Shown here piece by piece: positions 3,114 to 49,542 of a stretch of 64,000 bases of DNA (positions within the stretch are counted from its first letter, which is position 1; each line of letters opens with the position of its first letter). Origin of the DNA: Candidatus Fimenecus sp. (GTDB lineage Bacteria; Bacillota; Clostridia; Oscillospirales; Acutalibacteraceae); NCBI GenBank assembly GCA_045594645.1, contig JAZNYY010000043.1, forward strand, positions 3,562 to 67,561. The letters are read 5' to 3'. The position numbers and the translations under genes are program-made. The notes below the pieces were generated by a model. The model did not search any database. It was not told where the DNA came from and saw nothing but the letters and a program-made list of their open reading frames with translations.

Positions 3114-3128
3114 GGGAGGTAAAAGAAT

Positions 3129-4577: not shown

Positions 4578-4589
4578 AGGTAGTTTGAT

Positions 4590-20090: not shown

Positions 20091-20653
20091 ATTGGTTGTG
20101 GTTGCTTATTATTTAAAACCGAATTTACTGTTTCGGGTATCAAATCAAAATTCGCTACGATTGAGTTTGGTTTATTAATGCAGTCATCTTGTGACATCGG
20201 TACAAAGTAAATATTTTTACTATTCATTAAAAGTCCTATGTTTTTTGCGGCGGCACCCAAGGCATCATTGGTAGAAACAGCGATAATTACGGGGCGGGCA
20301 TTGCGAAGATGTGCTTTTGCCGCAAGAGTTACCGAGGTATCGGTAATTCCGTTTGCCATTTTGCCGATTGTGTTGCCCGTACAAGGTGCAATTACAAGGA
20401 TATCGAGAAGCTTTTTAGGGCCTATGGGCTCTGCACCGCTGATTGTATATATTATTCTCTCTTTGCAGATATTCTCAATTTCATCTATAAACTCACGGCT
20501 TTTACCAAATCGGGTGTCCGTTGTGTATGCAGTATGTGACATAATAGGGATTACGCGGTATCCCTCATCTATAAGCTTTTTCATTTGTGGGATTGCTTTT
20601 TTAAAGGTACAAAATGAACCGCAAAGGGCAAATCCCACAGTTTCATTACTCAT
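20081..20653 (-). CDS. dpaB: Dipicolinate synthase subunit B (flavoprotein)
   Basis: 190 aa. The N-terminus GFALCGSFCTF is typical of SpoVFB, and the gene overlaps dpaA. Confidence 0.9.
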   Translation of the reverse strand: MSNETVGFALCGSFCTFKKAIPQMKKLIDEGYRVIPIMSHTAYTTDTRFGKSREFIDEIENICKERIIYTISGAEPIGPKKLLDILVIAPCTGNTIGKMANGITDTSVTLAAKAHLRNARPVIIAVSTNDALGAAAKNIGLLMNSKNIYFVPMSQDDCINKPNSIVANFDLIPETVNSVLNNKQPQPILL

Positions 20654-21503
20654 TACTATCCTCCCTTTGCAAAATTCTTTTTCCTATGATTTCTCCCGCA
20701 GTTTTGGGAGTATATTTTCCGGGTAAGCCAAAGGCTTTAATAACATCAATGCCGAATTTTCGAGCCTCGTCAAAGTCCACACCATAGGGTGCAGATGCAA
20801 GCTCAATAATCTTACCGTCCTTTCTCATTTTTGAAAGTGTATCCGTACCGATAATCTTTGCGGGAACAGTATTTATTATTATATCAAATCGGTCGGCACA
20901 CTCTGAAATCTGTGAAAGTGGCAAGGCTTCACATCCCTTGATTGACGCATCTTCTCTTTGCGACGGATTGCGTGCAAATACAGTAACACCACAAGAAAGT
21001 GAAGTAAGCACCGCGGCGGTTTCTCTTGCTACTCTGCCATAACCGGTTATCGCAAACTTACCCAATGGCAACGCAAAATCAATATGCTCAAGCAAAATTT
21101 TAAGTGTACCAAAGGCGGTAAGCACCGCGTTTTTCTCAATAAACTCGGTATCGTAATAATCCACAAAGGGTATTTCTGTTTCGCGAAGTCGTGAAAGTAA
21201 TTCGCCCTTGATTATACCGCCGAAAACAAGATTTTCTTTACCCAAGAATGAGATAAGCCTCTCAATTGAGGTTTCTTTTTTTGAAAAGGGCATATTTATG
21301 GTTTTGTCATTTCTTGTGGCGGGCAAAGGCAGAACAATTACCGAATTTGGCAAAATTGCAGATTTAAGCCTTTCGGTATCGTCATCCCAATCGAAAAGTC
21401 CGTAGGAATAAACCTCACCGCCCTGCGCCTCAAGATAACTTTTAAGATATTTTTGTCTTTTATCGCCACCGATAATTACTATATTTCTATTTTTCATATA
21501 CAC
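20646..21503 (-). CDS. dpaA: Dipicolinate synthase subunit A
   Basis: 285 aa with Rossmann folds (IIGGDKRQ and ITGYGRVARE). It lies directly upstream of dpaB. Confidence 0.85.
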   Translation of the reverse strand: MYMKNRNIVIIGGDKRQKYLKSYLEAQGGEVYSYGLFDWDDDTERLKSAILPNSVIVLPLPATRNDKTINMPFSKKETSIERLISFLGKENLVFGGIIKGELLSRLRETEIPFVDYYDTEFIEKNAVLTAFGTLKILLEHIDFALPLGKFAITGYGRVARETAAVLTSLSCGVTVFARNPSQREDASIKGCEALPLSQISECADRFDIIINTVPAKIIGTDTLSKMRKDGKIIELASAPYGVDFDEARKFGIDVIKAFGLPGKYTPKTAGEIIGKRILQREDSNE

Positions 21504-25076: not shown

Positions 25077-26750
25077 TTATTTAAAGTAGTAAACCCTGCA
25101 CTCGTAAGGTCTTGTTACGAATGAGTTGTCAGTTACAGGGTTGAGACGGTAATTGTTGAGCACAAGCTCGCCGTCTGCAAGGTTAAAGCCCTCAGGAGCC
25201 TTGAACTGAACACATTTTTCTGTGAATGAGCAAACAACCAAAAGTCTTTCGCCGTCAAGATTTCTCTCGTAAACAAAGAGTTTATCGCTATTCTCATAAT
25301 ACTGTTTGAAATCACCATAGATTGCAACTTCGTGTTCCTTACGGAATTTAAGAAGCTTACGGTAGTAGTTGAGAATTGAGTTTTCATCAGCCTCAGCAGC
25401 GGCAACATTGATTTCTGTGTAGTTGGGGTTGAGGTTAAACCAAGGCTTTGCAGTTGAGAAGCCTGCATATTCGCTGTCATCCCATTGAACAGGAGTTCTT
25501 GAGTTTTCACGAGAGCCCGCATTAGCCATTTTAACAAATTTATCGCCCTTAATACCAAGCTTGTTGAACATAATCTGGTTATTAAAGGTAATCATATCCT
25601 TGAATTCATCAACAGAATGAAGCTCGATATTTGTCATACCGATTTCCTGTCCCTGATAAATAAACGGAGTACCTTTTTGTAAATAACACATTGTTGCAAG
25701 CATTTTACCACTTTCAACTCTGTATTTAAGTGAGCCGTAACGGTCGATAATTCTTGGATGGTCGTGATTTTCAAGATAAAGTGTGTGCCAACCTTTACCG
25801 TTCATAGCATCATACCATTTCTGATAGCACTTCTTCATCTTTTTAAGGCTGAAAGGAGTTTTAATCCAGTCAGTCATAAAGCAGTCTGCTTCAAGGTGGT
25901 CAAAGCTGAACATTGTTTTAAGAACCTGAGTTTCGTCTTCTGTAACAAATCTGAGAACTTTTTCAGGTGTTATAAGCGGACCTTCGCCGACAGTAAAGCA
26001 ATCATACTTTGAAAGCACATCATCGTGGAATTCTTTAAGATATTCATAGAGATGAGGACCGCAGTTGTAATGCTCCATACCGCAAGCAACGGGAATCGGC
26101 ACGCCGTTGGGAAGTCCCTCTTTTTTTGAAATGTATGTAATAACATCTTCGCGGAAGCCGTCAACGCCCATATCGAGCCAGAATTTCATAATATTCTTAA
26201 CTTCTTCACGAACTTTAGGGTTATCCATATTCAAATCGGGCTGACCCTTTGTGAATACATGGAGATAATACTCGTCAACGGACTCAACATACTCCCAAGC
26301 ACCGCCTTCAAATGTTGAAAGCCAGTTGTTAGGTGGTTTTTTACCATTTTTACCTTTACCTTTCCTCCAGATATAATAATCGTGGTAAGGATTGTCAACA
26401 CTCTTGCAAGCCTCTTTAAACCATTTGTGCTCAGTTGAAGTATGATTTACAACCAAATCCATAAACACTTTCATTCCACGCTCATGAGCACCTGCGAGCA
26501 CCTTTTTAAAGGTTTCCATATCGCCGTACTCAGGATTAATGTCCATATAATCGGCAATATCATAACCATAGTCAGCATTTGGTGATGGGAAAAGTGGTGA
26601 GAACCAGATTGCATCTACACCGATGGACTTAACATAGTCAAGCTTTGAGTAAATACCCTCAAGGTCGCCTATACCGTCACCATTTGAGTCTTTAAAGCTT
26701 CTTGGCCAAATCTGATAAACAGCCATTTCCTTATACCAAGTTTTGTTCAT
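25077..26750 (-). CDS. GH13 alpha-glucosidase / oligo-1,6-glucosidase
   Basis: The motifs are WYKEMAVYQIWPRSFKDSNGDGIGD, DLVVNHTS, GVDGFREDV, the acid/base region VGEG, and LENHDHPR. ATG 26750 is preferred over 26819. Confidence 0.9.
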   Translation of the reverse strand: MNKTWYKEMAVYQIWPRSFKDSNGDGIGDLEGIYSKLDYVKSIGVDAIWFSPLFPSPNADYGYDIADYMDINPEYGDMETFKKVLAGAHERGMKVFMDLVVNHTSTEHKWFKEACKSVDNPYHDYYIWRKGKGKNGKKPPNNWLSTFEGGAWEYVESVDEYYLHVFTKGQPDLNMDNPKVREEVKNIMKFWLDMGVDGFREDVITYISKKEGLPNGVPIPVACGMEHYNCGPHLYEYLKEFHDDVLSKYDCFTVGEGPLITPEKVLRFVTEDETQVLKTMFSFDHLEADCFMTDWIKTPFSLKKMKKCYQKWYDAMNGKGWHTLYLENHDHPRIIDRYGSLKYRVESGKMLATMCYLQKGTPFIYQGQEIGMTNIELHSVDEFKDMITFNNQIMFNKLGIKGDKFVKMANAGSRENSRTPVQWDDSEYAGFSTAKPWFNLNPNYTEINVAAAEADENSILNYYRKLLKFRKEHEVAIYGDFKQYYENSDKLFVYERNLDGERLLVVCSFTEKCVQFKAPEGFNLADGELVLNNYRLNPVTDNSFVTRPYECRVYYFK

Positions 26751-26840
26751 AAATAACACCCCTATTGTTATTAAGATTATATACAAAATAAGTATATCAC
26801 ATATTAAATTCAAAAACAATTAAAATATAATAAAAACCAT

Positions 26841-34605: not shown

Positions 34606-37395
34606 TTAAATCTTTTTGATGAAAGGTAGTATTGACAAAACAACTGTCCATACTAACTGATACACTATAATCTGCCATACACCAATTTGTGCAAGTCCTG
34701 AAAGGAATGCAAGTAAAACTACACCTGCAACACCTAAAAATGCTGCAACGAATTGAATAACTCTTGATACATTAACAAAATTATTTATTTCAAATGAGGC
34801 GTGAAGTGACATTAACATAGTCTTAATTCCACCGCGGTGGATAATCTTTGCATCGGCACGCTCTGCCTCGTTATTTTTAACCTTTGTGAACATCTCGCCT
34901 GCAACGGGGTTAATTATTTTAACCACATTTGACGGAAGCCCGAATTCCTGCTCTAAAAACTGCTCGGTAATATTTGCGTCAGAGGTTCTGAAGAAGATTG
35001 TAAGACCATCTTTTTCAAGCTCACGCATATATTTTGCAGTTTCTTCGTTTGCCTTATACACAACAACAAACATTGCAGAAATTTTACCCTCAATTGCAAG
35101 ATAAATCACATTTCTGCCGTCCTGCTTGAATTTTTCTTCCAAATCCTTATCGGGCACTTCAACATTGTGATGAACAAGCAATTCACGATTACCCACTAAT
35201 ACGCGGTGATTGTGAATCCAGCAAGAGCAACCGAGCTTTTCTTCATAAGAGAGTGACTCAACGGGGAACAAAAGCTGACGCTTGCCGTCAATTACGCCCT
35301 CAAAGATTTCTGCCATTACTCCGCCAGATGCGATAACAACTGATGCAGTATAAAGAATTGCCTCGTCAATACGCATTTTGTGGTAAATCTTCATACCCTC
35401 AATGTTGCAACCGCCCTTTTGGAAGGCATCACAAGCGTCAATTACAACACCGTTGGAGTTAACTGCATCTTCAACTGCGCTATAGCCGTTGATTACTGCA
35501 CCCTCAACATTCAACTTCTTGTTTACTGCACGAAGATTTACTGCCGCTGAAAGACCTGCCGTCATAGGAAGTCCCATAAGCACAACACCCGCGAAGGTGC
35601 TAAAGCCCGCAAAGGCATTTTTTGACACAAAGCCGTAAATTACACCAGCAAGCAACGCCACAATTGCCACCGCGGGAACTGCGATATTAAGAAGGGGCCC
35701 TGTAACCTCTGCCGAGCGGGAAAGCTCAACGAAGCGTGCGGGGAAGCCTATTCTTGCGGAATATTTAATATCGGGGTCACCAAGCATAAGACCGCGTGCG
35801 ATTTCGTTTGCGGTATCCTCATGACCTATGTTTTCAACACTATGTGGCTCATCGTTTTCGGCGAGAACTTCAAAATTCTCGGCATCGGTTTTACAACGCA
35901 CAAGCTCGCTGACCGCCTTTAAAATCATCGGTACAACCGACGCACCCGCAATAAGATGCGCTGTGGACTCAACATTATCAGTAAAAGCAAAACCTGCAAC
36001 ACATTGAATAATGCCCGCAATTGCTGAAACTGCAATTACGGTATCTGCATCAGCAGTTTTATTTTTAAGCCCTGCAATTGCATTTTTAAAGCTTGAGAAG
36101 TTAACTACGCAAGCGCAAAGCAAAAGCAATAACTGAACTGCAACATAAACAAATTCGTTATTACCGTAGATTTCAAAATTACCGTTTTCTGCTCCTGCTA
36201 CGGCGGCTAAAACACACATTGCAAATGCGATAAACGAGAGAACTGCAAGCTTTACAATAATACTCTTTTTCTCGGTTTCAAAAACCTTGCGTACTGCTTT
36301 TTTATCTTTAGGGCCGAAGTATTCGCGGGCTACATTCACCTTTCTTCTTTCGAAGCGACGCTTACGGCGAACCGGCTCTGCCTCTGTTTCAAATTCTTCT
36401 TCGGGCTCATCAACCTCTTGCTTAAAGATAAGCCCACTCTTTACGAATTCGTCAACAACACCCTTTCGTGTTTCGCGAAGCTGTGCCTCTGCCTCTTCTT
36501 CGGACTGTTGCATTACGGGCTCGTCATCAACAAAGCCCTCAAACATAATCTGATTATCTTCTTCTCTTGAAGACGATGAAATCTCTTCTTTTTCGAGCAT
36601 ATCCTCTGCGGGAACAATTGTCGGCAATGGTTCAAAGCCGTCAGTATTTGAAGATGCTGCTCTTTTTACCACAACGCCGGGGGTTTCAATGGTCTTCTGT
36701 GGCAATGAAGCGACAAGTGCGCGGTGTTCCTGAGTTTTCTCAAGATTCTGCACGGGCTTATTCATAAAATGCTTTCTGTATTTTTCTTCGCCGATGGCAG
36801 AGCTTGAAAGTGCTTCGCCGTCACCGGTTGTGGTGCGAACAACCTTATTTCCTAAATTATGAGAGATATTCGGATTATATGCACCGCGAATGTCAACCTC
36901 GTTGAACATTCTTGTTTTTTCAATTGAAATCTGACTGTCAGCAGTTTTGATTTCGGGCTTTTTTTCTTCTGCGGGCAATTCTTCGGGGATTTCTTCTGCC
37001 TCTACGCTGATTAAAGCACCGTCATCGGTAAGCCCAATCTGACCGTCATCTGTAACAGATACAGCCACCTTTGTTTCCTCGGTCTCATCCTTATGAAGCT
37101 CAGGAATATTAATTTCAAATTTCTTCTCTTTCTTTTGCGGTGCGGGAACAACGGGCTTTATTGCCACGGTTTTCTCCTCTGCTTTTTGCACCTTTACAGG
37201 CTCTGACTTTGGCTTTTCAGTAGTCTTGGGCAACGCAACCTTGATAGGTTCTTCATCTTCAGGTTCTTCGCCCATAATATCTGCGAGAAGTGCGTCAATC
37301 CGTGCGAAAGAATATTCCTCTACCGCGTCGTCACCGTTATATTTTTTTGCTGATTCAAGAATATCGTCAATTAACGATTCAGGTATTTTTGCCAT
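34606..37395 (-). CDS. Degenerate (catalytically dead) P1B-type ATPase-like membrane protein with ~370-aa acidic disordered N-terminus
   Basis: The protein is colinear with heavy-metal P-type ATPases, but every catalytic motif is changed. DKTGT becomes DACDAF (35422-35439), CPC becomes LPM, TGDN becomes TSDAN, GDGIND becomes HRGGIK, and no TGES is present. Confidence 0.6.
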   Translation of the reverse strand: MAKIPESLIDDILESAKKYNGDDAVEEYSFARIDALLADIMGEEPEDEEPIKVALPKTTEKPKSEPVKVQKAEEKTVAIKPVVPAPQKKEKKFEINIPELHKDETEETKVAVSVTDDGQIGLTDDGALISVEAEEIPEELPAEEKKPEIKTADSQISIEKTRMFNEVDIRGAYNPNISHNLGNKVVRTTTGDGEALSSSAIGEEKYRKHFMNKPVQNLEKTQEHRALVASLPQKTIETPGVVVKRAASSNTDGFEPLPTIVPAEDMLEKEEISSSSREEDNQIMFEGFVDDEPVMQQSEEEAEAQLRETRKGVVDEFVKSGLIFKQEVDEPEEEFETEAEPVRRKRRFERRKVNVAREYFGPKDKKAVRKVFETEKKSIIVKLAVLSFIAFAMCVLAAVAGAENGNFEIYGNNEFVYVAVQLLLLLCACVVNFSSFKNAIAGLKNKTADADTVIAVSAIAGIIQCVAGFAFTDNVESTAHLIAGASVVPMILKAVSELVRCKTDAENFEVLAENDEPHSVENIGHEDTANEIARGLMLGDPDIKYSARIGFPARFVELSRSAEVTGPLLNIAVPAVAIVALLAGVIYGFVSKNAFAGFSTFAGVVLMGLPMTAGLSAAVNLRAVNKKLNVEGAVINGYSAVEDAVNSNGVVIDACDAFQKGGCNIEGMKIYHKMRIDEAILYTASVVIASGGVMAEIFEGVIDGKRQLLFPVESLSYEEKLGCSCWIHNHRVLVGNRELLVHHNVEVPDKDLEEKFKQDGRNVIYLAIEGKISAMFVVVYKANEETAKYMRELEKDGLTIFFRTSDANITEQFLEQEFGLPSNVVKIINPVAGEMFTKVKNNEAERADAKIIHRGGIKTMLMSLHASFEINNFVNVSRVIQFVAAFLGVAGVVLLAFLSGLAQIGVWQIIVYQLVWTVVLSILPFIKKI

Positions 37396-40580: not shown

Positions 40581-41117
40581 TTATTCTTCCTTTTCTTCTT
40601 GCTTTTTAACAAGCCTTGAAAGATAATATATATTTTTCTGCGAGTTATTTATAAGCTCAGCAAAACCTTTTATTGCGAGCGATAAGGCAACTCCCAATCC
40701 CGCAATTGCTAATCCGCCGACTACACCAACAATATCCCTGCCCATAGGGAACATCATATAAACAGCAAAAGCAATACCACCTGCAACACCTGAAGCCAAC
40801 AGTATAACTGACGCTAAAAGTATCGTATTAGCAACCGGTGATGAGGGCATCTCATTATTATTTATTTCAGTTGTTTCTTCATCATCAACGGTGTTATTTT
40901 TATCTTTTAAATCTTGTTCTTCAATCTGCTGATTTTGTGCTTCAAGCTCTTTCTGTGCCTGCACCATTTCATAAATGGGATTATATTTTCTGCATGTCAC
41001 GCAGTTTTCAGTATCTTCCCAACATTCTTTATGATAGATTTCCCAGCAATGAGGGCACTCAACCAAATCGGCTTCATTTATTTTTTCATTACATTTAGCG
41101 CATATAAGATTATCCAT
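40581..41117 (-). CDS. Membrane-anchored zinc-finger protein (four CxxC/HxxC knuckles, RING/PHD-like)
   Basis: The N-terminus is CAKC-x13-CPHC-x5-HKEC-x7-CVTC. It is followed by a coiled/acidic linker, 2-3 TM helices, and a KKQEEKEE tail. Confidence 0.5.
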   Translation of the reverse strand: MDNLICAKCNEKINEADLVECPHCWEIYHKECWEDTENCVTCRKYNPIYEMVQAQKELEAQNQQIEEQDLKDKNNTVDDEETTEINNNEMPSSPVANTILLASVILLASGVAGGIAFAVYMMFPMGRDIVGVVGGLAIAGLGVALSLAIKGFAELINNSQKNIYYLSRLVKKQEEKEE

Positions 41118-43553: not shown

Positions 43554-43590
43554 GTTAGTGTGCCTCATTTGTTTAAAGAGGCACACTAAC
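43554..43590 (-). terminator. Intrinsic terminator after the repeat-protein gene
   Basis: A 13-bp stem pairs gttagtgtgcctc with gaggcacactaac. On the minus strand it is followed by TGTTTTTA. Confidence 0.7.
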
Positions 43591-43613
43591 TATACATCGC
43601 AAATAGTAACACC

Positions 43614-44003
43614 CTATTTTGTTTTCTGTAACTTCTTCTTTCTATAATATTCTTTATAGTATTGCTTTCGTTTTTCGTGAATATCAGGGTTTTCTTCATA
43701 ATATCTTTTCTGATATTCTGCCAGTTTTTCTTTGTTTTCAGCTTGATATACCTTTTGATACTCTGCAAGCTCCGCTTTGTGCTCACTGCGGTATTTTTTC
43801 TGATATTCTCTCACCTTTTGAGGTGCTTCGCTATTTTCTGCAAGGTATTTTTTACCTCTCTTTGCGTATTCCTCTTTATGCTCGGCATAATACTTTTGCT
43901 TGTACTTTTTCACTTGCTCACGATGCTCTGAATACCATTTTCTTTGATACTCCCGCCGTTTTTCTTTAAGCTGCAATTCGGTTCCTGCAATTTTCTGTGG
44001 CAC
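43614..44003 (-). CDS. Highly basic tandem-repeat protein (about seven ~15-aa Y-x3-Y-x-E-[HN]-K-E repeats)
   Basis: A GTG start at 44003 lies 8 nt after the RBS GGTGGAG. The ORF-track N-terminal extension (44004-44105) covers the promoter and operators. Repeats include YQRKWYSEHREQ, YKQKYYAEHKEE, YQKKYRSEHKAE, YQKVYQAENKEK and YQKRYYEENPD. Confidence 0.6.
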   Translation of the reverse strand: MPQKIAGTELQLKEKRREYQRKWYSEHREQVKKYKQKYYAEHKEEYAKRGKKYLAENSEAPQKVREYQKKYRSEHKAELAEYQKVYQAENKEKLAEYQKRYYEENPDIHEKRKQYYKEYYRKKKLQKTK

Positions 44004-44037
44004 AATTACCACTCCACCTATAGATACATACAAATTG

Positions 44038-44114
44038 GTAAACAAATTGTTTACTTTGATAATTATAGTAAACAGATTGTTTATTGTCAAGTAGAAAGTA
44101 AACATTTTGTTGTA
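44038..44114. promoter_or_regulatory. Three 17-bp operator repeats with exact 30-bp phasing
   Basis: O1 at 44038-44054 is gtaaacaaattgtttac, a perfect palindrome. O2 at 44068-44084 is gtaaacagattgtttat. O3 at 44098-44114 is gtaaacattttgttgta. Confidence 0.75.
44062..44090 (-). promoter_or_regulatory. Consensus sigma-A promoter for the repeat-protein gene (TTGACA-17-TATAAT)
   Basis: On the minus strand the -35 is at 44090-44085 and the -10 at 44067-44062. The 17-nt spacer is exactly operator O2, and O1 covers the expected +1 region. Confidence 0.7.
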
Positions 44115-44139
44115 TGATTGAAACAGAGGAGGGAGCGTT

Positions 44140-44355
44140 ATGGATTACACAAAAAGACTTTATGATTTAAGAACTGACAACGATTACCGGCAAGAAGACA
44201 TTGCCGAATATCTGCAGATAACCAAGCAAGCATATGGAATGTATGAAAACGGCAAAAGAAATCTTTCAATTGATTATCTTATAAAACTGAGCAAATTTTA
44301 CGGTGTTTCTACTGATTTCATCTTGTGCCTCACTGACAATCCTGAAATAAAATAA
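44140..44355 (+). CDS. Small XRE-family (Cro/CI-type) HTH repressor
   Basis: 71 aa reading LRTDNDYRQEDIAEYLQITKQAYGMYENGKR, with no peptidase or dimerisation extension. The RBS GAGGAGGGAG lies upstream. Confidence 0.85.
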   Translation: MDYTKRLYDLRTDNDYRQEDIAEYLQITKQAYGMYENGKRNLSIDYLIKLSKFYGVSTDFILCLTDNPEIK

Positions 44356-44394
44356 AAAACTGACCTGTGAACACACGCAGGTCAGTTCTCTTTT
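44354..44394. terminator. Bidirectional terminator (XRE / holin convergent)
   Basis: aaaaaa-ctgacctg-N10-caggtcag-ttctctttt. Confidence 0.75.
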
Positions 44395-44402
44395 ATATTG
44401 TA

Positions 44403-44648
44403 TTATTCACTTTTTTTAATCTGCTTAACCACCTGATTACCGTAAACCGCCGTACCTGTTACAAGTACACCCTGCACAACACTTTCAGGTGAAAATCCCA
44501 TAATGGCAACAGCCCCAATTATTCCAAAGCCTAAAAGTATAAGCGGAATATATTTATGGGGAATCTTCTCGGTATTTTTAATTATCATACCAATCACATT
44601 AAGCACGGGAATAAGCAAAAGTGCATTTTCTGTTATATATTCAAGCAT
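44403..44648 (-). CDS. Phage holin (2-TM, Hol118/phage_holin_5-like)
   Basis: 81 aa from MLEYITENALLLIPVLNVIGMIIKNTEKIPHKYIPLILLGFGIIGAV.. to a charged C-terminus KQIKKSE. The RBS is GGAGGAA. Confidence 0.75.
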   Translation of the reverse strand: MLEYITENALLLIPVLNVIGMIIKNTEKIPHKYIPLILLGFGIIGAVAIMGFSPESVVQGVLVTGTAVYGNQVVKQIKKSE

Positions 44649-44662
44649 TTTGTTCCTCCAAA

Positions 44663-44920
44663 TTATGACACGAGAGAACTCACAAGCACACCGCAAAGAG
44701 CCGCTATAAGTGCCACAACAGCCTTATCCCAAAGCCAGCCCGGACGCTTTTTCAAAGTCTCAATGCTCTCTTTGAGTTCCCCCAAGGTAACAAGCATACT
44801 GTCAAGCTTGGTAGTGCTTGTAACCTGTTCAAGTGTCACATCATTCACTTTTTTATAAAGAATTTTCACATCGGCTTCAATGGCATCAACGCGATGATTA
44901 AGAATTTCGTTTTCAGTCAT
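44663..44920 (-). CDS. xhlA: XhlA-family phage lysis accessory protein
   Basis: 85 aa with an N-terminal coiled coil (HRVDAIEADVKILYKKVNDV), RPGWLWDK, and a single C-terminal TM helix, matching the PBSX XhlA architecture. It overlaps the lysin stop by 8 nt. Confidence 0.75.
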   Translation of the reverse strand: MTENEILNHRVDAIEADVKILYKKVNDVTLEQVTSTTKLDSMLVTLGELKESIETLKKRPGWLWDKAVVALIAALCGVLVSSLVS

Positions 44921-45794
44921 TAACTACACCCTTTTTAATATCATCACGATGAACAAACCCCGTTACATATTTGCCGATGGGCTTGCGCTCAACATTTTTG
45001 AGAGAATTTGTAACTCTGTATCTTGCCTCAAAATAAATTCCGTCATAAATATAATAAGTACCGCTGATATAGTTTGAGACCTTGTCGGTATAAGCACTTG
45101 AATAAAGTCTTGCATTTTTAAGCACGACCTTCTGCCCTGCCGCAAAGCCTCTCTTGGGCGGTGTTGCCTCAATCTCAGCACCATAGCCGTTAAGACCGTT
45201 ATATTTCATAATTGCAGGGTAATTTTTGTATGACTCATCAAGGTCAACGCGACCTTCAATGCCGTCCACATTACCCTTTGAGGATTTCTGCCATATTCCG
45301 TAAGGCTTTTGGAATGTTGGTTTATCGCTCCACTGAGCAAGCCAGATATCGTATTTTTCAAAAATCTCGTCGGTGAAATAATTTTCAAGCCAATGCTTGT
45401 TAGCATAAATGCACACGTAGTAGCCATAAGACTCCATTTTTTCACAAAATGCCTTTGCTATTGCCGAAATCTTCTCCTTACCCAGCTCAGCAATTTTGCT
45501 ATATTCCATATCATAAGCAATTGGGTATTCAAACTTTTTACCCTTAAGCTTTGAGTGACAATGCTCTGCCTCTGCAACAGCCTCTTCGGGTGTTAAAGCA
45601 TATGCAAAATGATAGGCACCAACGGCGATACCCACCTTGCGAGCCGCAGGATAATTCGTTCTGAAATACAAATCAAACCCCTTTGTACCATAAGTTGCAC
45701 GAAGCATTGCAAACTGAATTCCCGCATTGCGTACAAGCGACCAGTTAATATCGCCCTGCCAGCGAGATACATCTATTCCTTTATATACAGCCAT
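44913..45794 (-). CDS. GH25 muramidase endolysin with C-terminal SH3b-like wall-binding domain
   Basis: It starts MAVYKGIDVSRWQGDINW, has the D-x-E region IAYDMEYS, and carries a C-terminal SH3b-like segment (GQKVVLKNARLYSSAY..YYIYDG). There is no signal peptide. Confidence 0.9.
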   Translation of the reverse strand: MAVYKGIDVSRWQGDINWSLVRNAGIQFAMLRATYGTKGFDLYFRTNYPAARKVGIAVGAYHFAYALTPEEAVAEAEHCHSKLKGKKFEYPIAYDMEYSKIAELGKEKISAIAKAFCEKMESYGYYVCIYANKHWLENYFTDEIFEKYDIWLAQWSDKPTFQKPYGIWQKSSKGNVDGIEGRVDLDESYKNYPAIMKYNGLNGYGAEIEATPPKRGFAAGQKVVLKNARLYSSAYTDKVSNYISGTYYIYDGIYFEARYRVTNSLKNVERKPIGKYVTGFVHRDDIKKGVVND

Positions 45795-45816
45795 AATATC
45801 AACTCCTTTATTTTTA

Positions 45817-47517
45817 TCAATTCTGTCCATACAATGCAGTGACAATTGTATCCTTGATAACAGTCATTCCGGCTTTATTTGGGTGCGAGCCACTTTGCTC
45901 AACATCATTAGCTTCTAAATAACGAATTGGAATATACAGCAACCCATAATGTTCACAAATGGTTGATATCATATTTTTTATATTGTTGTAACAATTATAT
46001 GCCGACACGCAAACAATTTGAGCATGTGGGTTATATGTCAATAAATAATCAATAAGATAACAATATGCCGGCGCAAACGATTGCAAATCTTCTTCTGTCC
46101 ACTCAGAATATTTAGGCTCACCAATATCAACTGAGGCATTATAATCATTGACTCCGCCGAATATAAAAATCAAATCGGGCTTTATTCCAACGGCATTACC
46201 TTCTCCAAGATGTACTTTTGCACGATTTACAAACGATGTCGCGTCACCCCTCGGTGCATTTGGGCTATTGCAAACACAAGAGCCACTATAGCTCTCATTG
46301 CAAAGCAGTGAAAGTTGCTTTTCTTTGGAAAATTGCCACCACCATGTATCTTTTACGGACTCTACATCATTTGATTTACTTTGAGTTTCACTGTTCCCAT
46401 ACCAAGTCGCATTGTTTTCAGGCAACCAGCCCTCATAAGTTGAAAATGAGTCACCGATTACGGCAAAAGAAGAAATAACCTTTCTGCTTTTTATCTCGGA
46501 TATATTCTCTTTTATCTCGGTGATTTCTTTGTCTTGCAAGTCTGCACGGGGAGTTCTGACTGTGAATTCTCCACCGTAAGAGTTACCCCAATCAAAACCT
46601 GTGAATGTCGCTTCCATTCCCGCACCGGAATTGGCGATTATCTGTCTTAAATATCTCGCTTTTACAACTGCGTTGTCATACTTACATTGCATAACACGAT
46701 TTGTTGTGTCCGTAGTATAGAAAACCAAGCCTACTGTATTGCTCAATTCTCTATTAATTGGAATAGGCTCACCACAATTAAGTGTGCCGTCTTTCAAATA
46801 TGTTATTGTTGGAAATACACCCTCTGCAACTGCTGTATCAAGAGAAATTATCGCATAATAGAATGTGTCATCCTCGATTTGAAATTTTGGTGTAAATGTT
46901 CCAATATAGGTTGGCTCATCAAAAAACAATGCTGTTTTCGCATAAGCCAAGTCATACCGATATTCTTCATTAGACTTATTCTCAAACATAAAAGTTGCAT
47001 CGTAAAACTCGGCAGGCATCTCACCCTTTTCTCCTTGTATTCCTTGCTCTCCTTTATCTCCCTTGTCACCTTTATCCCCCTTGAATGTGCCAAGTCGGAT
47101 TGCTTCAAGCAAGGCATTGATTGAAAAATCATTGACTTTACAAAGTGTATTGTCAGTGTCGGGTGAGTAATCAAAAGTAAGACAAAACTTTCGGGGTTTG
47201 ATTATCTGAATAGTGTTGCCGTCTGCATCAATTGCTACAATATTAAAATAACATTCAGTTCCTTTAAGAGAACTCATTGAAACAGGAATTGCGTATGTGA
47301 TAGTATTATCTGCCGTATTCAGTTCAAGATATTCTGTTCGCACCTTATTGCCCATAAGTGAACGGTATTCAATATAATAACGATAATCGCCCAGATAAGC
47401 CTCGTCAATTTTAAATTTCAACACTGTTGCGTTGTGTTCCCACATTACCCCCGCGTTTTCAACATATTCCGTATTGTTATCGGGGGTTATATCAATAGAA
47501 ATAATTTTATTCTCCAT
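45817..47517 (-). CDS. Phage tail-fibre/baseplate-like protein: N-terminal beta domain + collagen triplets + C-terminal SGNH/GDSL esterase
   Basis: GDKGDKGDKGEQGIQGEKGE supplies the Gly-X-Y repeats. SGNH blocks are present: I AVIGDSFSTYEGW, III FIFGGVNDYN, V GSHPNKAGM. The N-terminus has no hydrophobic leader. The BppU-like assignment of the N-terminal domain is tentative. Confidence 0.7.
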   Translation of the reverse strand: MENKIISIDITPDNNTEYVENAGVMWEHNATVLKFKIDEAYLGDYRYYIEYRSLMGNKVRTEYLELNTADNTITYAIPVSMSSLKGTECYFNIVAIDADGNTIQIIKPRKFCLTFDYSPDTDNTLCKVNDFSINALLEAIRLGTFKGDKGDKGDKGEQGIQGEKGEMPAEFYDATFMFENKSNEEYRYDLAYAKTALFFDEPTYIGTFTPKFQIEDDTFYYAIISLDTAVAEGVFPTITYLKDGTLNCGEPIPINRELSNTVGLVFYTTDTTNRVMQCKYDNAVVKARYLRQIIANSGAGMEATFTGFDWGNSYGGEFTVRTPRADLQDKEITEIKENISEIKSRKVISSFAVIGDSFSTYEGWLPENNATWYGNSETQSKSNDVESVKDTWWWQFSKEKQLSLLCNESYSGSCVCNSPNAPRGDATSFVNRAKVHLGEGNAVGIKPDLIFIFGGVNDYNASVDIGEPKYSEWTEEDLQSFAPAYCYLIDYLLTYNPHAQIVCVSAYNCYNNIKNMISTICEHYGLLYIPIRYLEANDVEQSGSHPNKAGMTVIKDTIVTALYGQN

Positions 47518-47761
47518 ACTTTTCTCCTTTATAATAGGTTTTTAAAAGCGATGCGGTTTGTTTAAGCTCCCGTTTGATTTCGTAGAACTTACGAAGCTCC
47601 CCTTCAAGCTTGATAACCGCATCTGTGTCCCCCGAGTTTTTAGCCTTTTTGATTGAATTTTTGCAGTTGTTGATAAACAAATCCTGCAATTCAGCGTGAG
47701 ACTCATATTCTTTTCCCAAATCAAAAAGAGACATATTTTTAGTTTTTGAATTTTCTGACAT
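47507..47761 (-). CDS. Hypothetical small helical protein (phage-island)
   Basis: 84 aa, predicted all-helical and charged. It overlaps both neighbouring genes, which suggests coupling. No family was recognised. Confidence 0.45.
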   Translation of the reverse strand: MSENSKTKNMSLFDLGKEYESHAELQDLFINNCKNSIKKAKNSGDTDAVIKLEGELRKFYEIKRELKQTASLLKTYYKGEKYGE

Positions 47762-48128
47762 ATTCCAGTAATTCCTCCGTTGATTGTGGAAGCAAAATTT
47801 TATCGTACATCAAAACATATTTCAGTGCCATTTCGAGTTTCTTGCGAATATTTTCAAGATTTCTGTAAATGCTTATGTGCGACACATCATATTTTTTTGC
47901 CAGCTCCCTTAACGGAACTTCATTGTACCAATGTGCCGTTGCAAGATTGCGTTCATATTCCGTGAGTTCATTCTGCATCACACTTTTGACGATTTCAATC
48001 AGTTTTTTCTGTCTGTTGTAAATAAGATATTTTGTTCCGTCTTTGACTTGCCCGCCCGACAAGTCAACATAGTCAGTAAGAAAATCAAATTCCTCAACTG
48101 AAAATTCAGATACCTGAACATTCTGCAT
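47739..48128 (-). CDS. Sigma-70 region-4-like / ArpU-Xpf-type phage late-gene transcription factor
   Basis: 129 aa. LTEYERNLATAHWYNEVPLRELAKKYDVSHISIYRNLENIRKKL resembles a sigma region 4.2 HTH. Confidence 0.6.
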   Translation of the reverse strand: MQNVQVSEFSVEEFDFLTDYVDLSGGQVKDGTKYLIYNRQKKLIEIVKSVMQNELTEYERNLATAHWYNEVPLRELAKKYDVSHISIYRNLENIRKKLEMALKYVLMYDKILLPQSTEELLEYVRKFKN

Positions 48129-48172
48129 AGTATAAATCCGCCCCTTTCAAAAATCTTGTTCATCAAAAAAAT

Positions 48173-48200
48173 AAAACGCAGATGAAAAATCGTGCGTTTT
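48173..48200 (-). promoter_or_regulatory. Leader hairpin + U-tract (possible attenuator) between promoter and sigma-like gene
   Basis: The minus strand reads aaaacgca-cgatttttcatc-tgcgtttt followed by ATTTTTTTG. Confidence 0.45.
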
Positions 48201-48212
48201 CAAATTATTTAT

Positions 48213-48226
48213 CGAACATTTGTTCG
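48213..48226. promoter_or_regulatory. LexA operator (Cheo box) CGAAC-N4-GTTCG
   Basis: The sequence cgaacatttgttcg has perfect arms. It lies 13 nt downstream of the -10 hexamer. Confidence 0.7.
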
Positions 48227-48239
48227 CCTCGCATTTATT

Positions 48240-48268
48240 ATTGTAGCAACATATTTTAATGTTGTCAA
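48240..48268 (-). promoter_or_regulatory. Consensus-like sigma-A promoter of the island operon (TTGACA-17-TACAAT)
   Basis: On the minus strand the -35 is at 48268-48263 and the -10 at 48245-48240. Confidence 0.7.
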
Positions 48269-48342: not shown

Positions 48343-48373
48343 TAAAAAAACGGAAGCCCTTTCGGACTTCCGT
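48343..48373 (-). terminator. Intrinsic terminator after the surface-protein gene
   Basis: The minus strand reads acggaagtcc-gaaag-ggcttccgt followed by TTTTTTT. Confidence 0.7.
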
Positions 48374-48405
48374 CAAAATATCAATTATGAAATTATGTAA
48401 AAGAA

Positions 48406-49206
48406 TTATTCAGCGTCTTCGCTCTTTTTTCTTGTCATAACAAGTGCTGCACCTGCTGCAAGAGCTACTGCTGCAACTGCAAATACTGTTGTATCGCCTG
48501 TGTCGGGAATTGTTGAACCTTCACCGTCAGTGCCCCATGGGTCTTCTTCGTCCCAAAGGTTATCTTCCTCTCCGGGGTCTGTGGGGTCACTTGGAGTAGG
48601 GTCATCACTTGGGAAAAGGCTACCGATAATACCGCCAAGGATACCGAGAATTGTATCAAGCAATCCGCCGATATCAAAGCCACCGCCTGCATTACCCTCG
48701 TCTTCTTCGGGAAGCTGACCGTCTTCAATGCTGCCGTCGGGCTTACCAACATAACCGTCAGAGTTAAGGTCTGTTGAAAGAAGCTCTTCAACGCCCCAAA
48801 CAATCTGGTTAACAACATCGCCGCCAACTGTCTTTGCAGCCTCTGGGAATGCTGATGTAAATGTATCCATATCAATTTCATTGTTTGTTACATTACCTGC
48901 AATTTCAGGCACAACAGTAATAACTGCTGTGGGGTTTGTTGCAGCTTCACCGAGAATAACTACATAATATGCAGTCCAACCCTCAACATCTGTGGGGTCA
49001 GCAGGCTTTGAACCATCGGGCTCACTGCTTTCGTCTTCATTAACATCGTCGCCCTCAACAACATCACCTTCGGTAATATCGCCACCAGCTAAAGTATCAT
49101 CAATTACTGTATCGCCACTTCCAACTGTTTCGTCTGCTGCGAAGCCGACAACTGTCATGCTGAGAATCATTGCAAGAGAAAGAACAACTGCAAGAATCTT
49201 TTTCAT
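48406..49206 (-). CDS. Acidic secreted protein with LPXTG-like (IPDTG) cell-wall sorting signal
   Basis: The signal peptide is MKKILAVVLSLAMILSMTVVGFA. The protein is D/E/G-rich. Its C-terminus is IPDTGD, a hydrophobic helix, then RKKSEDAE. Confidence 0.65.
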   Translation of the reverse strand: MKKILAVVLSLAMILSMTVVGFAADETVGSGDTVIDDTLAGGDITEGDVVEGDDVNEDESSEPDGSKPADPTDVEGWTAYYVVILGEAATNPTAVITVVPEIAGNVTNNEIDMDTFTSAFPEAAKTVGGDVVNQIVWGVEELLSTDLNSDGYVGKPDGSIEDGQLPEEDEGNAGGGFDIGGLLDTILGILGGIIGSLFPSDDPTPSDPTDPGEEDNLWDEEDPWGTDGEGSTIPDTGDTTVFAVAAVALAAGAALVMTRKKSEDAE

Positions 49207-49353
49207 AATAATCATTTCCTTTCGTTATAAGTAGAAAAAATTAGAATATTCCACTTCTATTCTCGCCCATTATACAACAATAGCCAAAAAAAGTCAACTG
49301 CGTTTTAAAATTTTTTTGTGTATATTGCAGATAATATACATGGAGGTGAATTT

Positions 49354-49542
49354 ATGTTTTTTAAAAAGAGAAATTCCGAAGAAAAAGCCGCCCGCACAAG
49401 ACGAAAGCTACGCAAAATGAACGAAGAAATCAGCGAAATCTGGAACGGTGAAGAAAACGCAAAGCAATTTGATGCAAACGGTTGGTACACGGGCAATCCA
49501 AAGGGGTTTGAAGTGCCCGAGCAAGACCCTGATGACCTATAA
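49354..49542 (+). CDS. Hypothetical small protein
   Basis: 62 aa starting at the ATG after the RBS GGAGGTG. It is charged and has no recognised family. Confidence 0.35.
   Translation: MFFKKRNSEEKAARTRRKLRKMNEEISEIWNGEENAKQFDANGWYTGNPKGFEVPEQDPDDL

What the first reader, a model, noticed from the sequence alone, without database searches (positions are those of the whole stretch)
48173..48268. Perfect Cheo (LexA) box directly over the +1 region of the island promoter, followed by a leader terminator-like hairpin
The minus strand reads TTGACA (48268-48263), a 17-nt spacer, then TACAAT (48245-48240). Thirteen nt further on is CGAACAAATGTTCG (48226-48213). This is the Firmicute LexA operator CGAAC-N4-GTTCG with both arms perfect.

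The lysis operon therefore appears to be repressed directly by host LexA, not through a cleavable CI. The adjacent XRE protein is only 71 aa and has no peptidase domain.

Downstream, an 8-bp hairpin (48200-48193 / 48180-48173) followed by AUUUUUUUG lies between the promoter and the RBS of the sigma-like gene. This suggests a second gate by attenuation or antitermination before a lethal operon is expressed.
Basis: partly seen in the sequence, partly recalled or inferred. Interest (0 to 1): 0.7.

Follow-up and report, generated by a model that had tools for sequence, protein, structure and literature searches.

The report
LexA-controlled domesticated phage lysis cassette
A near-perfect promoter, a textbook Gram-positive LexA (DNA-damage) operator and a small leader terminator sit in front of a six-gene, phage-derived cell-lysis cassette fixed in the chromosome of uncultured gut-type Clostridia, so these bacteria probably burst a fraction of their cells on DNA damage, a known kind of circuit in a new setting.

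Summary
It is the only perfect Cheo box in the window (0.05 expected by chance). The box equals the published S. aureus LexA consensus.

About 25 related loci were fetched. Promoter and GAACAAATGTTCG are invariant in all, even where the first gene's protein is only 37% identical and DNA 5' of the -35 is about 35% identical. The hairpin plus U-run is kept in 17 lineages with four different stem sequences. One lineage has an RBS-sequestering hairpin instead.

The operon encodes a sigma-region-4-like HTH protein, an 84-aa coiled-coil protein, a BppU/collagen fibre with a variable C-terminus, a GH25 endolysin, an XhlA-like protein and a holin. It sits beside rimP-nusA in every longer locus, under purifying selection (dN/dS 0.02-0.17), with no other phage genes.

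Direct LexA repression is well supported by comparison, though LexA binding was not tested. The 71-aa XRE gene lies 3.9 kb away in a 765-bp indel absent from the closest relative. The hairpin is most likely a leak-damping attenuator. This is a new variant of a known kind, comparable to colicin operons, GIL01 and LexA-repressed endolysins.

The parts
48349..48374 (-). Intrinsic terminator of the upstream anchored-protein gene. It insulates the cassette promoter from read-through.
   Evidence: Terminator scan: 11-bp stem, 6 GC pairs, T-run. An equivalent hairpin precedes the promoter in related loci.
48263..48268 (-). -35 hexamer TTGACA
   Evidence: TTGACAA is invariant in 10 aligned loci. Segment identity is 0.95, against 0.33-0.40 just upstream.
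48240..48248 (-). Extended -10, TGcTACAAT
   Evidence: GCTACAAT is invariant in all aligned loci. Segment identity is 0.98-1.00.
48227..48239 (-). Conserved start-site region AATAAATGCGAGG (GCAAGG in relatives). The predicted +1 is near 48233.
   Evidence: Segment identity 0.85-0.87; GC.AGG is invariant. The position of the start site is inferred from spacing only.
48213..48226 (-). LexA (Cheo/SOS) box CGAACAAATGTTCG, at about +7 to +20
   Evidence: Unique in the window, 0.05 expected. GAACAAATGTTCG is invariant in all related loci. It is identical to the S. aureus LexA consensus (PMC11442139) and matches the B. subtilis consensus at 13 of 14 positions (PMC8270828).
48164..48200 (-). Leader hairpin (48200-48193 / 48180-48173) plus U-run (48171-48165). 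It has the form of an intrinsic terminator or attenuator.
   Evidence: -9.6 kcal/mol, z = -3.7. Three pairs show compensatory changes within the clade. Seventeen lineages in four stem sequence classes all fold at -7.7 to -16.3 kcal/mol with a U-rich tail.
48141..48148 (-). Ribosome-binding site GAAAGGGG of the first gene
   Evidence: GAAAGGGG conserved.
47739..48128 (-). First gene, 129 aa: sigma-70 region 4 / YlxM-like HTH protein with no region 2
   Evidence: Weak hits to TIGR02937, YlxM and PF04297. In the AF2 model residues 40-105 are confident, and Foldseek matches sigma-4 domains at rmsd 1-2.5 A with E of 0.02 or higher. Only 8 homologue clusters exist in 5.8 billion proteins. dN/dS is 0.04-0.17.
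47507..47761 (-). 84-aa Lys/Glu-rich, probably coiled-coil protein of unknown function. It overlaps both neighbouring genes.
   Evidence: No family hit. Present in every related locus. dN/dS is 0.13-0.35. Sequence.
45817..47517 (-). 566-aa fibre-like protein: BppU N-terminal (baseplate) fold (residues 1-146), a collagen Gly-X-Y run, then a variable C-terminus that is a GDSL/SGNH hydrolase in this window
   Evidence: PF16255 at residues 350-558. Tail-fibre PHROGs. The N-domain is conserved and the C-terminus swapped among relatives. Foldseek matches NF5, 80alpha and TP901-1 BppU (E = 3e-8 to 4e-5) and BFVD 'BppU domain' proteins. N-domain dN/dS is 0.04-0.12.
44913..45845 (-). GH25 muramidase (endolysin). 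The true start is probably about 50 nt downstream of the listed TTG, because relatives are 291-300 aa.
   Evidence: PF01183 E = 5e-37. phrog_291 endolysin E = 4e-50. 94-99% amino-acid identity to relatives with dN/dS 0.02-0.05.
44663..44920 (-). 85-aa XhlA-like lysis accessory protein
   Evidence: phrog_937 'hemolysin' (XhlA type) E = 5.5e-6. dN/dS is 0.04-0.09.
44403..44648 (-). Holin (81 aa as in relatives; the ORF extends to 44696)
   Evidence: PF16079 Phage_holin_5_2 E = 9e-20. phrog_1129. dN/dS is 0.08-0.12.
44358..44387 (.). 12-bp inverted repeat at the 3' end of the operon. It is the probable operon terminator and also ends the convergent XRE gene.
   Evidence: Terminator scan. It lies inside the segment shared with L009.

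Best explanation
The site is a host LexA operator placed just downstream of the start site of a strong housekeeping-type (sigma-A) promoter.

In undamaged cells a LexA dimer on CGAACAAATGTTCG (about +7 to +20) blocks RNA polymerase. The few transcripts that escape are mostly stopped about 60 nt later by a leader intrinsic terminator. After DNA damage, RecA-stimulated LexA self-cleavage frees the promoter. High initiation then lets enough polymerase read through the terminator to express one tightly overlapping operon. That operon encodes a sigma-4-like HTH protein, an 84-aa coiled-coil protein, a signal-peptide-less BppU/collagen fibre protein with a swappable C-terminal domain, a GH25 endolysin, an XhlA-like protein and a holin. 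The result is lysis of the expressing cell and release of its contents, including the fibre protein.

The cassette is the domesticated tail end of a siphophage late operon, fixed next to rimP-nusA in a clade of uncultured spore-forming Clostridia.

**Shown:**
- the sequence elements
- their conservation and covariation
- the gene content
- the fixed position beside rimP-nusA
- purifying selection

**Inferred:**
- LexA binding
- damage induction
- termination efficiency
- lysis
For: - **Box quality.** It is perfect and unique in the window. It is identical to a published LexA consensus and matches the B. subtilis consensus at 13 of 14 positions. The Clostridial LexA motif is GAAC-N4-GTT[CT] (PMC4234289).
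- **Footprint.** Promoter and box are invariant across all loci in the alignments and in the further metagenome loci. DNA 5' of the -35 is 33-40% identical, synonymous sites are near saturation (dS 0.65 to over 2), and the first protein falls to 37% identity. Only the low-information first base of the box varies (C, T or A).
- **Specificity.** It is the only GAAC-N4-GTTC in the intergenic DNA of the first 15 related loci fetched, L001-L015.
- **Position.** An operator downstream of +1 has precedent: SPbeta yolD has a LexA operator at +14.
- **No rival repressor.** No CI-like repressor is conserved, and XRE lies in an indel.
- **Hairpin.** Conserved structure with a U-run across four stem sequence classes. 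There is no room for another promoter before the RBS. The genes overlap, so they form a single operon.
- **Lysis genes.** Annotated by Pfam and PHROGs.
- **Precedents for direct LexA control of lysis.** Colicin E2, which also has an internal terminator (PMC4353708); ExPEC endolysins (PMC9621596); GIL01 (PMC4551915).
Against: - No lexA, recA or uvr promoter from this clade could be reached. No SOS gene lies in the window or in any fetched locus, so this clade's own LexA motif is assumed from other Firmicutes.
- There is only one box, whereas colicin promoters usually carry two.
- The palindrome would also form a 5' RNA hairpin.
- One lineage (L016-L018) lacks the terminator, and in L025 it is degenerate. 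The window's own upper stem carries a mismatch. The terminator is therefore not indispensable.
- There are no expression data.
- What the sigma-4-like and 84-aa proteins do in a one-promoter operon is unexplained.
Confidence: 0.75

Rival explanations
1. The palindrome is the operator of some regulator other than LexA. Candidates are the cassette's own sigma-4-like HTH protein (autoregulation), the 84-aa protein, or an unidentified host dimeric HTH protein. Under this reading SOS control is indirect or absent.
For: LexA binding was not tested and no SOS gene of the clade is available for comparison. The operon's first gene is a DNA-binding protein with no assigned target. The 13 nt upstream of the box are also conserved, which could point to a larger composite site.
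Against: The sequence is exactly a published LexA consensus. The site is 100% invariant while the cassette's HTH protein diverges to 37% identity, which fits a slowly evolving host factor better. Sigma-4 domains recognise asymmetric -35-type elements as part of RNA polymerase, not 14-bp palindromes (established knowledge).
Confidence: 0.1
2. The leader hairpin is a conditional gate rather than a constant damper. A protein, either the sigma-4-like/84-aa pair acting in positive feedback or a host NusG/LoaP- or Q-type factor, makes polymerase terminator-resistant. This would give an all-or-none switch like lambda pR'-tR'.
For: The layout, a strong promoter, a leader of about 60 nt, a terminator and then lysis genes, mirrors lambda pR'-tR' (established knowledge). 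Two conserved small regulators of unknown role head the operon. The terminator structure is conserved through complete stem turnover. The region between the -10 and the box is conserved beyond what a promoter needs.
Against: No conserved alternative RNA fold and no Rfam family were found. The candidate factors are encoded downstream of the terminator, so they cannot start the process. One lineage does without the terminator and instead has an RBS-sequestering hairpin, which suggests general damping rather than a specific antitermination site.
Confidence: 0.2
3. The promoter, box and terminator mainly make a short SOS-induced RNA of about 60 nt (5' hairpin, A/U-rich linker, terminator). Expression of the operon is a by-product of read-through.
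For: The unit has the anatomy of a small RNA, and its 5' 25 nt are invariant.
Against: The invariant part coincides exactly with the DNA operator. The linker and hairpin sequences are not conserved, only the fold is. The lineage without the terminator keeps the promoter and box. The six downstream genes have no other promoter and are under strong purifying selection.
Confidence: 0.05
4. The match is a chance palindrome or a decaying prophage remnant with no present function.
For: A perfect box arises by chance in about 5% of shuffled windows. Only part of a phage remains.
Against: The box is invariant in every related locus fetched (about 25), against a diverged background. All six ORFs are intact with dN/dS of 0.02-0.17 (0.35 for the 84-aa gene in the closest pair, where dS is only 0.09), at dS comparable with or above the flanking H+-PPase and RimP genes.
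Confidence: 0.01

Closest known systems
Colicin operons of E. coli (e.g. ColE2 cea-cei-cel)
   Same: LexA operator immediately downstream of the -10 of a strong promoter. A cargo gene and a lethal lysis function share one SOS-controlled operon. An intrinsic terminator limits how much of the lethal part is made (PMC4353708).
   Different: - The colicin operons are plasmid-borne, Gram-negative and use the CTGT-N8-ACAG motif, usually as two overlapping boxes.
- Their terminator sits before the lysis gene, not in the leader.
- Their lysis protein is a small lipoprotein, not a holin/endolysin pair.
- They carry an immunity gene; none was identified here.
Bacillus tectivirus GIL01, and LexA-repressed prophage endolysins of ExPEC
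   Same: Host LexA itself, rather than a phage CI, represses phage-derived lytic genes by binding SOS boxes at the promoter (PMC4551915; PMC9621596).
   Different: GIL01 is a replicating phage that needs the co-repressor gp7 and a LexA-like activator. The ExPEC endolysins lie inside prophages. Here the unit is a six-gene chromosomal cassette with no other phage gene within about 5 kb on either side, inherited vertically.
PBSX-type lysis module of Bacillus subtilis (xhlA-xhlB-xlyA) and siphophage baseplate/late-operon ends
   Same: An XhlA-like protein, a holin and an endolysin follow a BppU-type baseplate/fibre gene, as at the end of many siphophage late operons.
   Different: No capsid, tail, terminase or integrase genes are present. 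The gene order is endolysin-xhlA-holin. Control is by LexA instead of the Xre/Xpf pair. The sigma-like protein has region 4 only.
Clostridial TcdR/UviA-type loci (C. difficile PaLoc; C. perfringens uviAB-bcn) and type 10 secretion systems
   Same: A phage-derived holin, with or without an endolysin, has been co-opted to release a large protein that has no signal peptide. A small dedicated sigma-type regulator is encoded first, and there are links to DNA damage (PMC10467148; PMC6200909 and PMC10847048).
   Different: TcdR and UviA are full group-5 sigma factors of about 180-190 aa (length recalled from general knowledge, not checked here). The protein here has 129 aa and only a region 4-like domain. 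The cargo here is a BppU/collagen fibre, not a toxin. Whether release is lytic or non-lytic is unknown.
Lambda late promoter unit pR'-tR' (Q antitermination)
   Same: A strong promoter, a short leader and an intrinsic terminator lie directly in front of lysis genes.
   Different: No Q-like gene lies upstream, no qut-like element was identified, and the promoter is gated by LexA.

Membership tests
Firmicute LexA operator (Cheo / SOS box) | Sequence fits CGAAC-N4-GTTCG (core GAAC-N4-GTTC) | tested here: met
   CGAACAAATGTTCG at 48226-48213. It equals the S. aureus consensus and matches the B. subtilis consensus at 13 of 14 positions.
Firmicute LexA operator (Cheo / SOS box) | Lies within or next to a promoter so that bound LexA hinders RNA polymerase | tested here: met
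   It starts 13 nt after the -10 of an 11/12 promoter with TG extension, at about +7 to +20. A B. subtilis SPbeta operator lies at +14.
Firmicute LexA operator (Cheo / SOS box) | Conserved at orthologous promoters (phylogenetic footprint) | tested here: met
   Invariant in all loci fetched. Box identity is 0.97-0.98, against 0.33-0.40 upstream.
Firmicute LexA operator (Cheo / SOS box) | Same motif upstream of the organism's own lexA, recA and uvr genes | not testable with these tools
   No SOS gene lies in the window or in any fetched locus.
Firmicute LexA operator (Cheo / SOS box) | LexA binding and DNA-damage inducibility | not testable with these tools
   Needs EMSA or SPR and a reporter or transcriptome experiment.
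Intrinsic (Rho-independent) terminator acting as a leader attenuator | Stable stem-loop directly followed by a U-tract, between promoter and first ORF | tested here: met
   -9.6 kcal/mol in the window and -7.7 to -16.3 in relatives, with 5-8 U in the tail in all but one lineage.
Intrinsic (Rho-independent) terminator acting as a leader attenuator | Structure conserved through compensatory change | tested here: met
   Three covarying pairs within the clade. Four unrelated upper-stem sequence classes are all paired.
Intrinsic (Rho-independent) terminator acting as a leader attenuator | Mutually exclusive antiterminator fold, or membership of a known riboswitch or leader family | tested here: not met
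   No Rfam match to the leader itself; four weak hits lie upstream around the 48349-48374 terminator, all far below their gathering scores. The whole-leader fold has z = 0.06. No conserved leader peptide is visible in the leader sequences (my reading).
Intrinsic (Rho-independent) terminator acting as a leader attenuator | Transcripts end at the U-run in vivo or in vitro | not testable with these tools
   Needs Term-seq or in-vitro transcription.
TcdR/UviA-type (group 5) sigma factor locus | Regulator has both sigma region 2 and region 4 | tested here: not met
   The protein has 129 aa. Only residues about 40-105 match sigma-4 or YlxM.
Prophage or defective prophage (PBSX-like) | Integrase, capsid, tail or terminase genes adjoining the lysis module | tested here: not met
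   The flanks are H+-PPase, MurT/GatD and rimP-nusA-infB. The rimP-nusA flank is the same in every locus long enough to show it. No relative was found in IMG/VR.
Colicin-type SOS release operon | Cargo plus lysis function under one LexA-controlled promoter, with an immunity gene | tested here: inconclusive
   Cargo-like fibre and lysis genes share one operon. No immunity candidate was identified, and toxicity of the fibre protein is unknown.

The most novel reading that the evidence does not exclude
The cassette is a domesticated, SOS-triggered 'altruistic release' system of Clostridia. It would be a colicin- or T10SS-like device in which LexA loss makes a subpopulation lyse to liberate a trimeric BppU/collagen fibre protein. 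That protein's swappable C-terminal domain (an SGNH esterase here) would act on competitors or on surfaces. The leader terminator, together with the sigma-4-like and 84-aa pair, would form a feedback switch that makes the decision all-or-none.
Probability: 0.2. Interest if true: 0.75.

Novelty: new variant of a known kind. Interest (0 to 1): 0.5.

Why it matters
- Direct wiring of LexA to lysis functions is known from colicins, GIL01 and some E. coli prophage endolysins. Here it is found as a minimal phage-derived cassette in a fixed chromosomal position, kept under purifying selection across a clade of uncultured gut or rumen Clostridia.
- It predicts that DNA-damaging drugs or oxidative stress cause programmed lysis in these organisms. 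That lysis would release DNA, vesicles, cytoplasmic enzymes and a polymorphic fibre protein.
- The cassette is a compact natural example of layered safety on a lethal operon: operator, leader terminator, and RBS sequestration in one lineage.
- The regulatory region is so strongly conserved that it can serve as a sequence tag for finding the cassette in metagenomes.

Tried and rejected
**Searches that led nowhere**
- I looked for SOS genes to test the clade's own LexA motif. None is in the window or in 10 kb beyond its right end.
- The protein near the left end of the window is not on record.
- A phage origin in IMG/VR was not found. No relative of the sigma-4-like protein is there, and two exact 19-mer matches are high-GC coding DNA, so they are chance.
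- The Rfam search of the leader gave nothing near threshold.
- The covariance-model alignment of the hairpin pulled in antisense and spurious hits. I replaced it with per-lineage folding.

**Readings rejected**
- A leader peptide starting at the ATG inside the box: its length and frame are not conserved (my reading).
- A second promoter between terminator and RBS: only about 35 nt are available.
- An antiterminator pairing between the box and the upper stem: at most 4 bp, and not conserved.
- XRE as the cassette repressor: it lies in an indel.
- A full sigma factor: the protein is too short and has only region 4.
Full report
**1. Observation**

- TTGACA at 48268-48263, then a 17-nt spacer.
- TACAAT at 48245-48240, preceded by TG at 48248-48247, so this is an extended -10. 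The promoter scan scores it 11/12 with TG.
- After 13 nt, CGAACAAATGTTCG at 48226-48213.
- Hairpin arms AAAACGCA (48200-48193) and TGCGTTTT (48180-48173), then AUUUUUUUG.
- RBS GAAAGGGG at 48148-48141 and ATG at 48128.

The perfect CGAAC-N4-GTTCG is the only one in 64 kb. The expected number is 0.05, and 5 of 100 shuffles had one. Allowing one mismatch adds no further site. The window hairpin folds at -9.6 kcal/mol with z = -3.7. If transcription starts about 7 nt after the -10, the box covers roughly +7 to +20. That is just downstream of +1 rather than over it.

**2. What the promoter drives**

Six tightly packed, mostly overlapping ORFs follow on the minus strand.

| Coordinates | Size | Identity | Evidence |
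|---|---|---|---|
| 47739-48128 | 129 aa | Weak sigma-70 region 4 / YlxM HTH similarity | |
| 47507-47761 | 84 aa | Lys/Glu-rich, no family hit | |
| 45817-47517 | 566 aa | Fibre-like, GDSL/SGNH domain at 350-558 | |
| 44913-45845 | 310 aa | GH25 endolysin | |
| 44663-44920 | 85 aa | XhlA-like | |
| 44403-44648 | 81 aa | Holin | |

- **129-aa protein.** An AF2 model is confident only for residues about 40-105. Foldseek matches there are sigma-4 domains (rmsd 1-2.5 A) but weak (E of 0.02 or higher). It is a region 4-like HTH protein, not a complete sigma factor.
- **Fibre-like protein.** The N-terminal 146 residues adopt the BppU N-terminal fold of siphophage baseplates. Matches are NF5, 80alpha and TP901-1 ORF48 at E = 3e-8 to 4e-5, and many BFVD 'BppU domain' proteins. 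A collagen Gly-X-Y run follows, then a C-terminal part that differs completely among relatives. Only this window carries the SGNH domain.
- **Flanks.** These are core genes: H+-PPase, a Prok-RING protein and MurT/GatD on one side, and an anchored surface protein followed by rimP-nusA-infB-rbfA-truB-ribF on the other. No integrase, capsid, tail or terminase genes are present.
- **Insulation.** The upstream gene has its own strong terminator at 48374-48349.

**3. Related loci**

The 129-aa protein has only eight homologue clusters among 5.8 billion proteins. It has two relatives in GTDB species genomes, both 'uncultured Eubacteriales' MAGs, and none in IMG/VR.

Every locus recovered shows the same gene order, and every locus long enough to show it lies beside rimP-nusA. 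A search with the fibre N-domain found a sister clade of 'Clostridia bacterium' MAGs. These have the same cassette next to rimP but different genes on the other side. Their first gene encodes a protein only 37% identical to the window's.

An exact-pattern scan of metagenomes for the -10/box module gave eight further loci. The two longest again show the same gene order.

Against relatives, the six genes have dN/dS of 0.02-0.17, apart from 0.35 for the 84-aa gene in the closest pair, where dS is only 0.09. dS runs from 0.65 to saturation, comparable with or above the flanking H+-PPase and RimP genes. The endolysin is as conserved as the H+-PPase (94-96% identity). The cassette is therefore phage-derived but fixed, inherited vertically and selected. 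It is neither a recent island nor a decaying remnant.

**4. Is the box functional?**

In alignments of the regulatory region, TTGACAA, GCTACAAT, GC.AGG and GAACAAATGTTCG are invariant, including the N4 spacer.

| Segment | Mean pairwise identity |
|---|---|
| 5' of the -35 | 0.33-0.40 |
| Spacer | 0.56-0.63 |
| -35 | 0.95-0.97 |
| Extended -10 | 0.98-1.00 |
| Box | 0.97-0.98 |

- Only the first base of the box varies (C, T or A). That is the low-information position of the Firmicute motif.
- The box is the only intergenic GAAC-N4-GTTC in the first 15 related loci fetched, L001-L015.
- The sequence equals the published S. aureus LexA consensus (PMC11442139). It differs at one central base from the B. 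subtilis consensus CGAACATATGTTCG (PMC8270828).
- Clostridial LexA uses GAAC-N4-GTT[CT], with Cheo boxes shown at C. perfringens recA and in C. acetobutylicum (PMC4234289).
- A LexA operator at +14 is documented for SPbeta yolD.
- A site that stays 100% identical while the cassette's own HTH protein drops to 37% identity fits a conserved host factor better than a cassette-encoded one.

I could not test whether this clade's own lexA, recA or uvr promoters carry the motif. No such gene lies in the window or in any fetched locus.

**5. The XRE argument**

The 71-aa HTH_3 protein (44140-44355, plus strand) does lack a peptidase domain. However, it is 3.9 kb from the promoter, convergent with the operon's 3' end, and sits in a 765-bp insertion (43568-44332) relative to the closest relative, L009. 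It is absent from all other loci. It is not part of the conserved regulatory design. That strengthens the conclusion that no CI-type repressor is involved.

**6. The leader hairpin**

Within the window's clade the lower stem is invariant. The upper stem covaries (CGAAA/UUUCG, CGGA/UCCG, CAGA/UCUG), giving three pairs with double changes.

Across all lineages there are four unrelated stem classes:
- AAAACGCAcGAAA.../...UUUCGuaUGCGUUUU
- AAAACGUGUAUAU/AUAUAUGCGUUUU
- AGAACGUGCGA/UCGUGCGUUCU
- AAAUGCgCAUA/UAUAuGCAUUU

Each folds at -7.7 to -16.3 kcal/mol and is followed by a U-rich tail. This is strong evidence for a selected structure with intrinsic-terminator geometry.

There are exceptions:
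- The window's own copy is among the weaker ones, with a C·A mismatch in the upper stem.
- L025 is degenerate (-2.3 kcal/mol).
- L016-L018 have no terminator. Their leader instead folds into a hairpin that sequesters the Shine-Dalgarno sequence (-7.5 kcal/mol, z = -4.2).

I found no conserved alternative (antiterminator) fold, no Rfam family and no conserved leader peptide. There is also no room for a second promoter between the U-run and the RBS.

The simplest reading is a constitutive damper. It removes most leak transcripts from a lethal operon and is overcome by flux once LexA is gone. A factor-dependent, Q-like or feedback antitermination remains possible (about 0.2).

**7. Mechanism proposed**

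- LexA on the box blocks the sigma-A promoter.
- DNA damage leads to RecA-stimulated LexA cleavage.
- Transcription then partly reads through the leader terminator.
- The operon is expressed, and the holin/XhlA/GH25 set lyses the cell and releases its contents. These include the BppU/collagen fibre protein, whose N-terminus shows no obvious signal peptide on inspection.

Shown: the sequence elements, conservation, covariation, gene content, the fixed position beside rimP-nusA, and purifying selection. Inferred: LexA binding, inducibility, termination and lysis.

Unexplained: the roles of the sigma-4-like and 84-aa proteins in a single-promoter operon, and why a baseplate-attachment domain is kept without a baseplate. 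One speculation is that the SGNH domain de-O-acetylates peptidoglycan for the GH25 muramidase. This applies only to the window's variant.

**8. Comparison with known systems**

- **Colicin operons.** The logic is closest to these: a LexA box just after the -10, cargo plus lysis in one operon, and a terminator limiting the lethal part (PMC4353708).
- **Direct LexA control of phage-derived lytic genes.** Examples are GIL01 (PMC4551915) and the ExPEC endolysins (PMC9621596).
- **Gene content.** It resembles the end of a siphophage late operon and the PBSX xhlA/holin/lysin set.
- **Co-option.** The idea of a co-opted holin/endolysin with a small dedicated regulator recalls the C. difficile PaLoc, C. 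perfringens uviAB-bcn and T10SS.

It is not a member of those families. The regulator lacks sigma region 2, no immunity gene or toxin was identified, the unit is chromosomal, and no other phage genes are present.

**9. Verdict**

- Novelty: a new variant of a known kind.
- Interest is moderate (0.5). The regulatory principle is textbook. A minimal LexA-wired lysis/fibre cassette, conserved by descent in uncultured Clostridia and carrying layered safety devices, is not described in the literature I could search. I found no paper describing such a cassette.

Noticed in passing
window 43568-44332: A 765-bp insertion relative to the closest relative (L009). It carries the 71-aa XRE gene (44140-44355, +) and a divergent 163-aa ORF (43614-44105, -) with no Pfam hit. 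A perfect 12/12 sigma-70-type promoter (44090-44062, -) lies inside that ORF's 5' end. Other relatives have a Cu/Zn superoxide dismutase gene, or nothing, at this spot.
   Followed up: partly
window 45817-47517; L001, L004, L005, L006, L009, L012, L016-L018: The fibre-like protein keeps a BppU N-domain and a collagen run, but its C-terminal half is swapped between lineages and total length ranges from 246 to 582 aa. Only the window's copy has a GDSL/SGNH hydrolase domain. This is the pattern seen in receptor-binding proteins, yet no baseplate genes are present.
   Followed up: partly
L016-L018, positions about 7325-7360: In the lineage that lacks the leader terminator, the leader folds into a hairpin that sequesters the Shine-Dalgarno sequence (AAAAUCUC...GAGGGAUUUU, -7.5 kcal/mol, z = -4.2). 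This may be a translational substitute for the transcriptional damper.
   Followed up: partly
L002, L003, L006, L007 (contig starts): Four independent metagenome contigs begin within 0-23 nt of the box, and L006 starts exactly at GAAC. Assemblies seem to break at the boundary between the invariant regulatory block and the variable upstream DNA, which suggests strain heterogeneity there.
   Followed up: no
window 48406-49215 (-) and 49305-49496 (-): Upstream of the cassette lies a 269-aa protein with a weak LPXTG/NPXTG-type anchor, its own promoter (49297-49269) and its own terminator. Next to it is a conserved 62/63-aa ORF. In the sister clade a 66-aa secreted peptide replaces the anchored protein. 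This neighbour is variable, and any link to the cassette is unknown.
   Followed up: no
window 34606-37395 (-): A 929-aa ORF has no Pfam family at E of 0.001 or better. It lies between a SpoU methylase gene and an MgtC-family gene.
   Followed up: no
window 40581-41117 (-): A 178-aa protein with a prokaryotic RING finger (PF14446) lies directly upstream of MurT/GatD. This arrangement is conserved in several relatives (e.g. L001, L002, L009).
   Followed up: no
L014 5430-6527; window 25077-26819, 20646-21503: Hints to the organism: a cohesin-domain protein just beyond the window's right end, an alpha-amylase, and dipicolinate synthase DpaA (a sporulation gene), at about 41% GC. This fits a spore-forming, amylosome- or cellulosome-type member of the Oscillospirales (Ruminococcus-like). 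GTDB relatives are labelled only 'uncultured Eubacteriales'.
   Followed up: no
window 305-8086 (+): A multi-subunit Mrp/Mbh-type cation:proton antiporter-like operon, with four Proton_antipo_M proteins and MnhB/MbhE, occupies the left end of the window.
   Followed up: no
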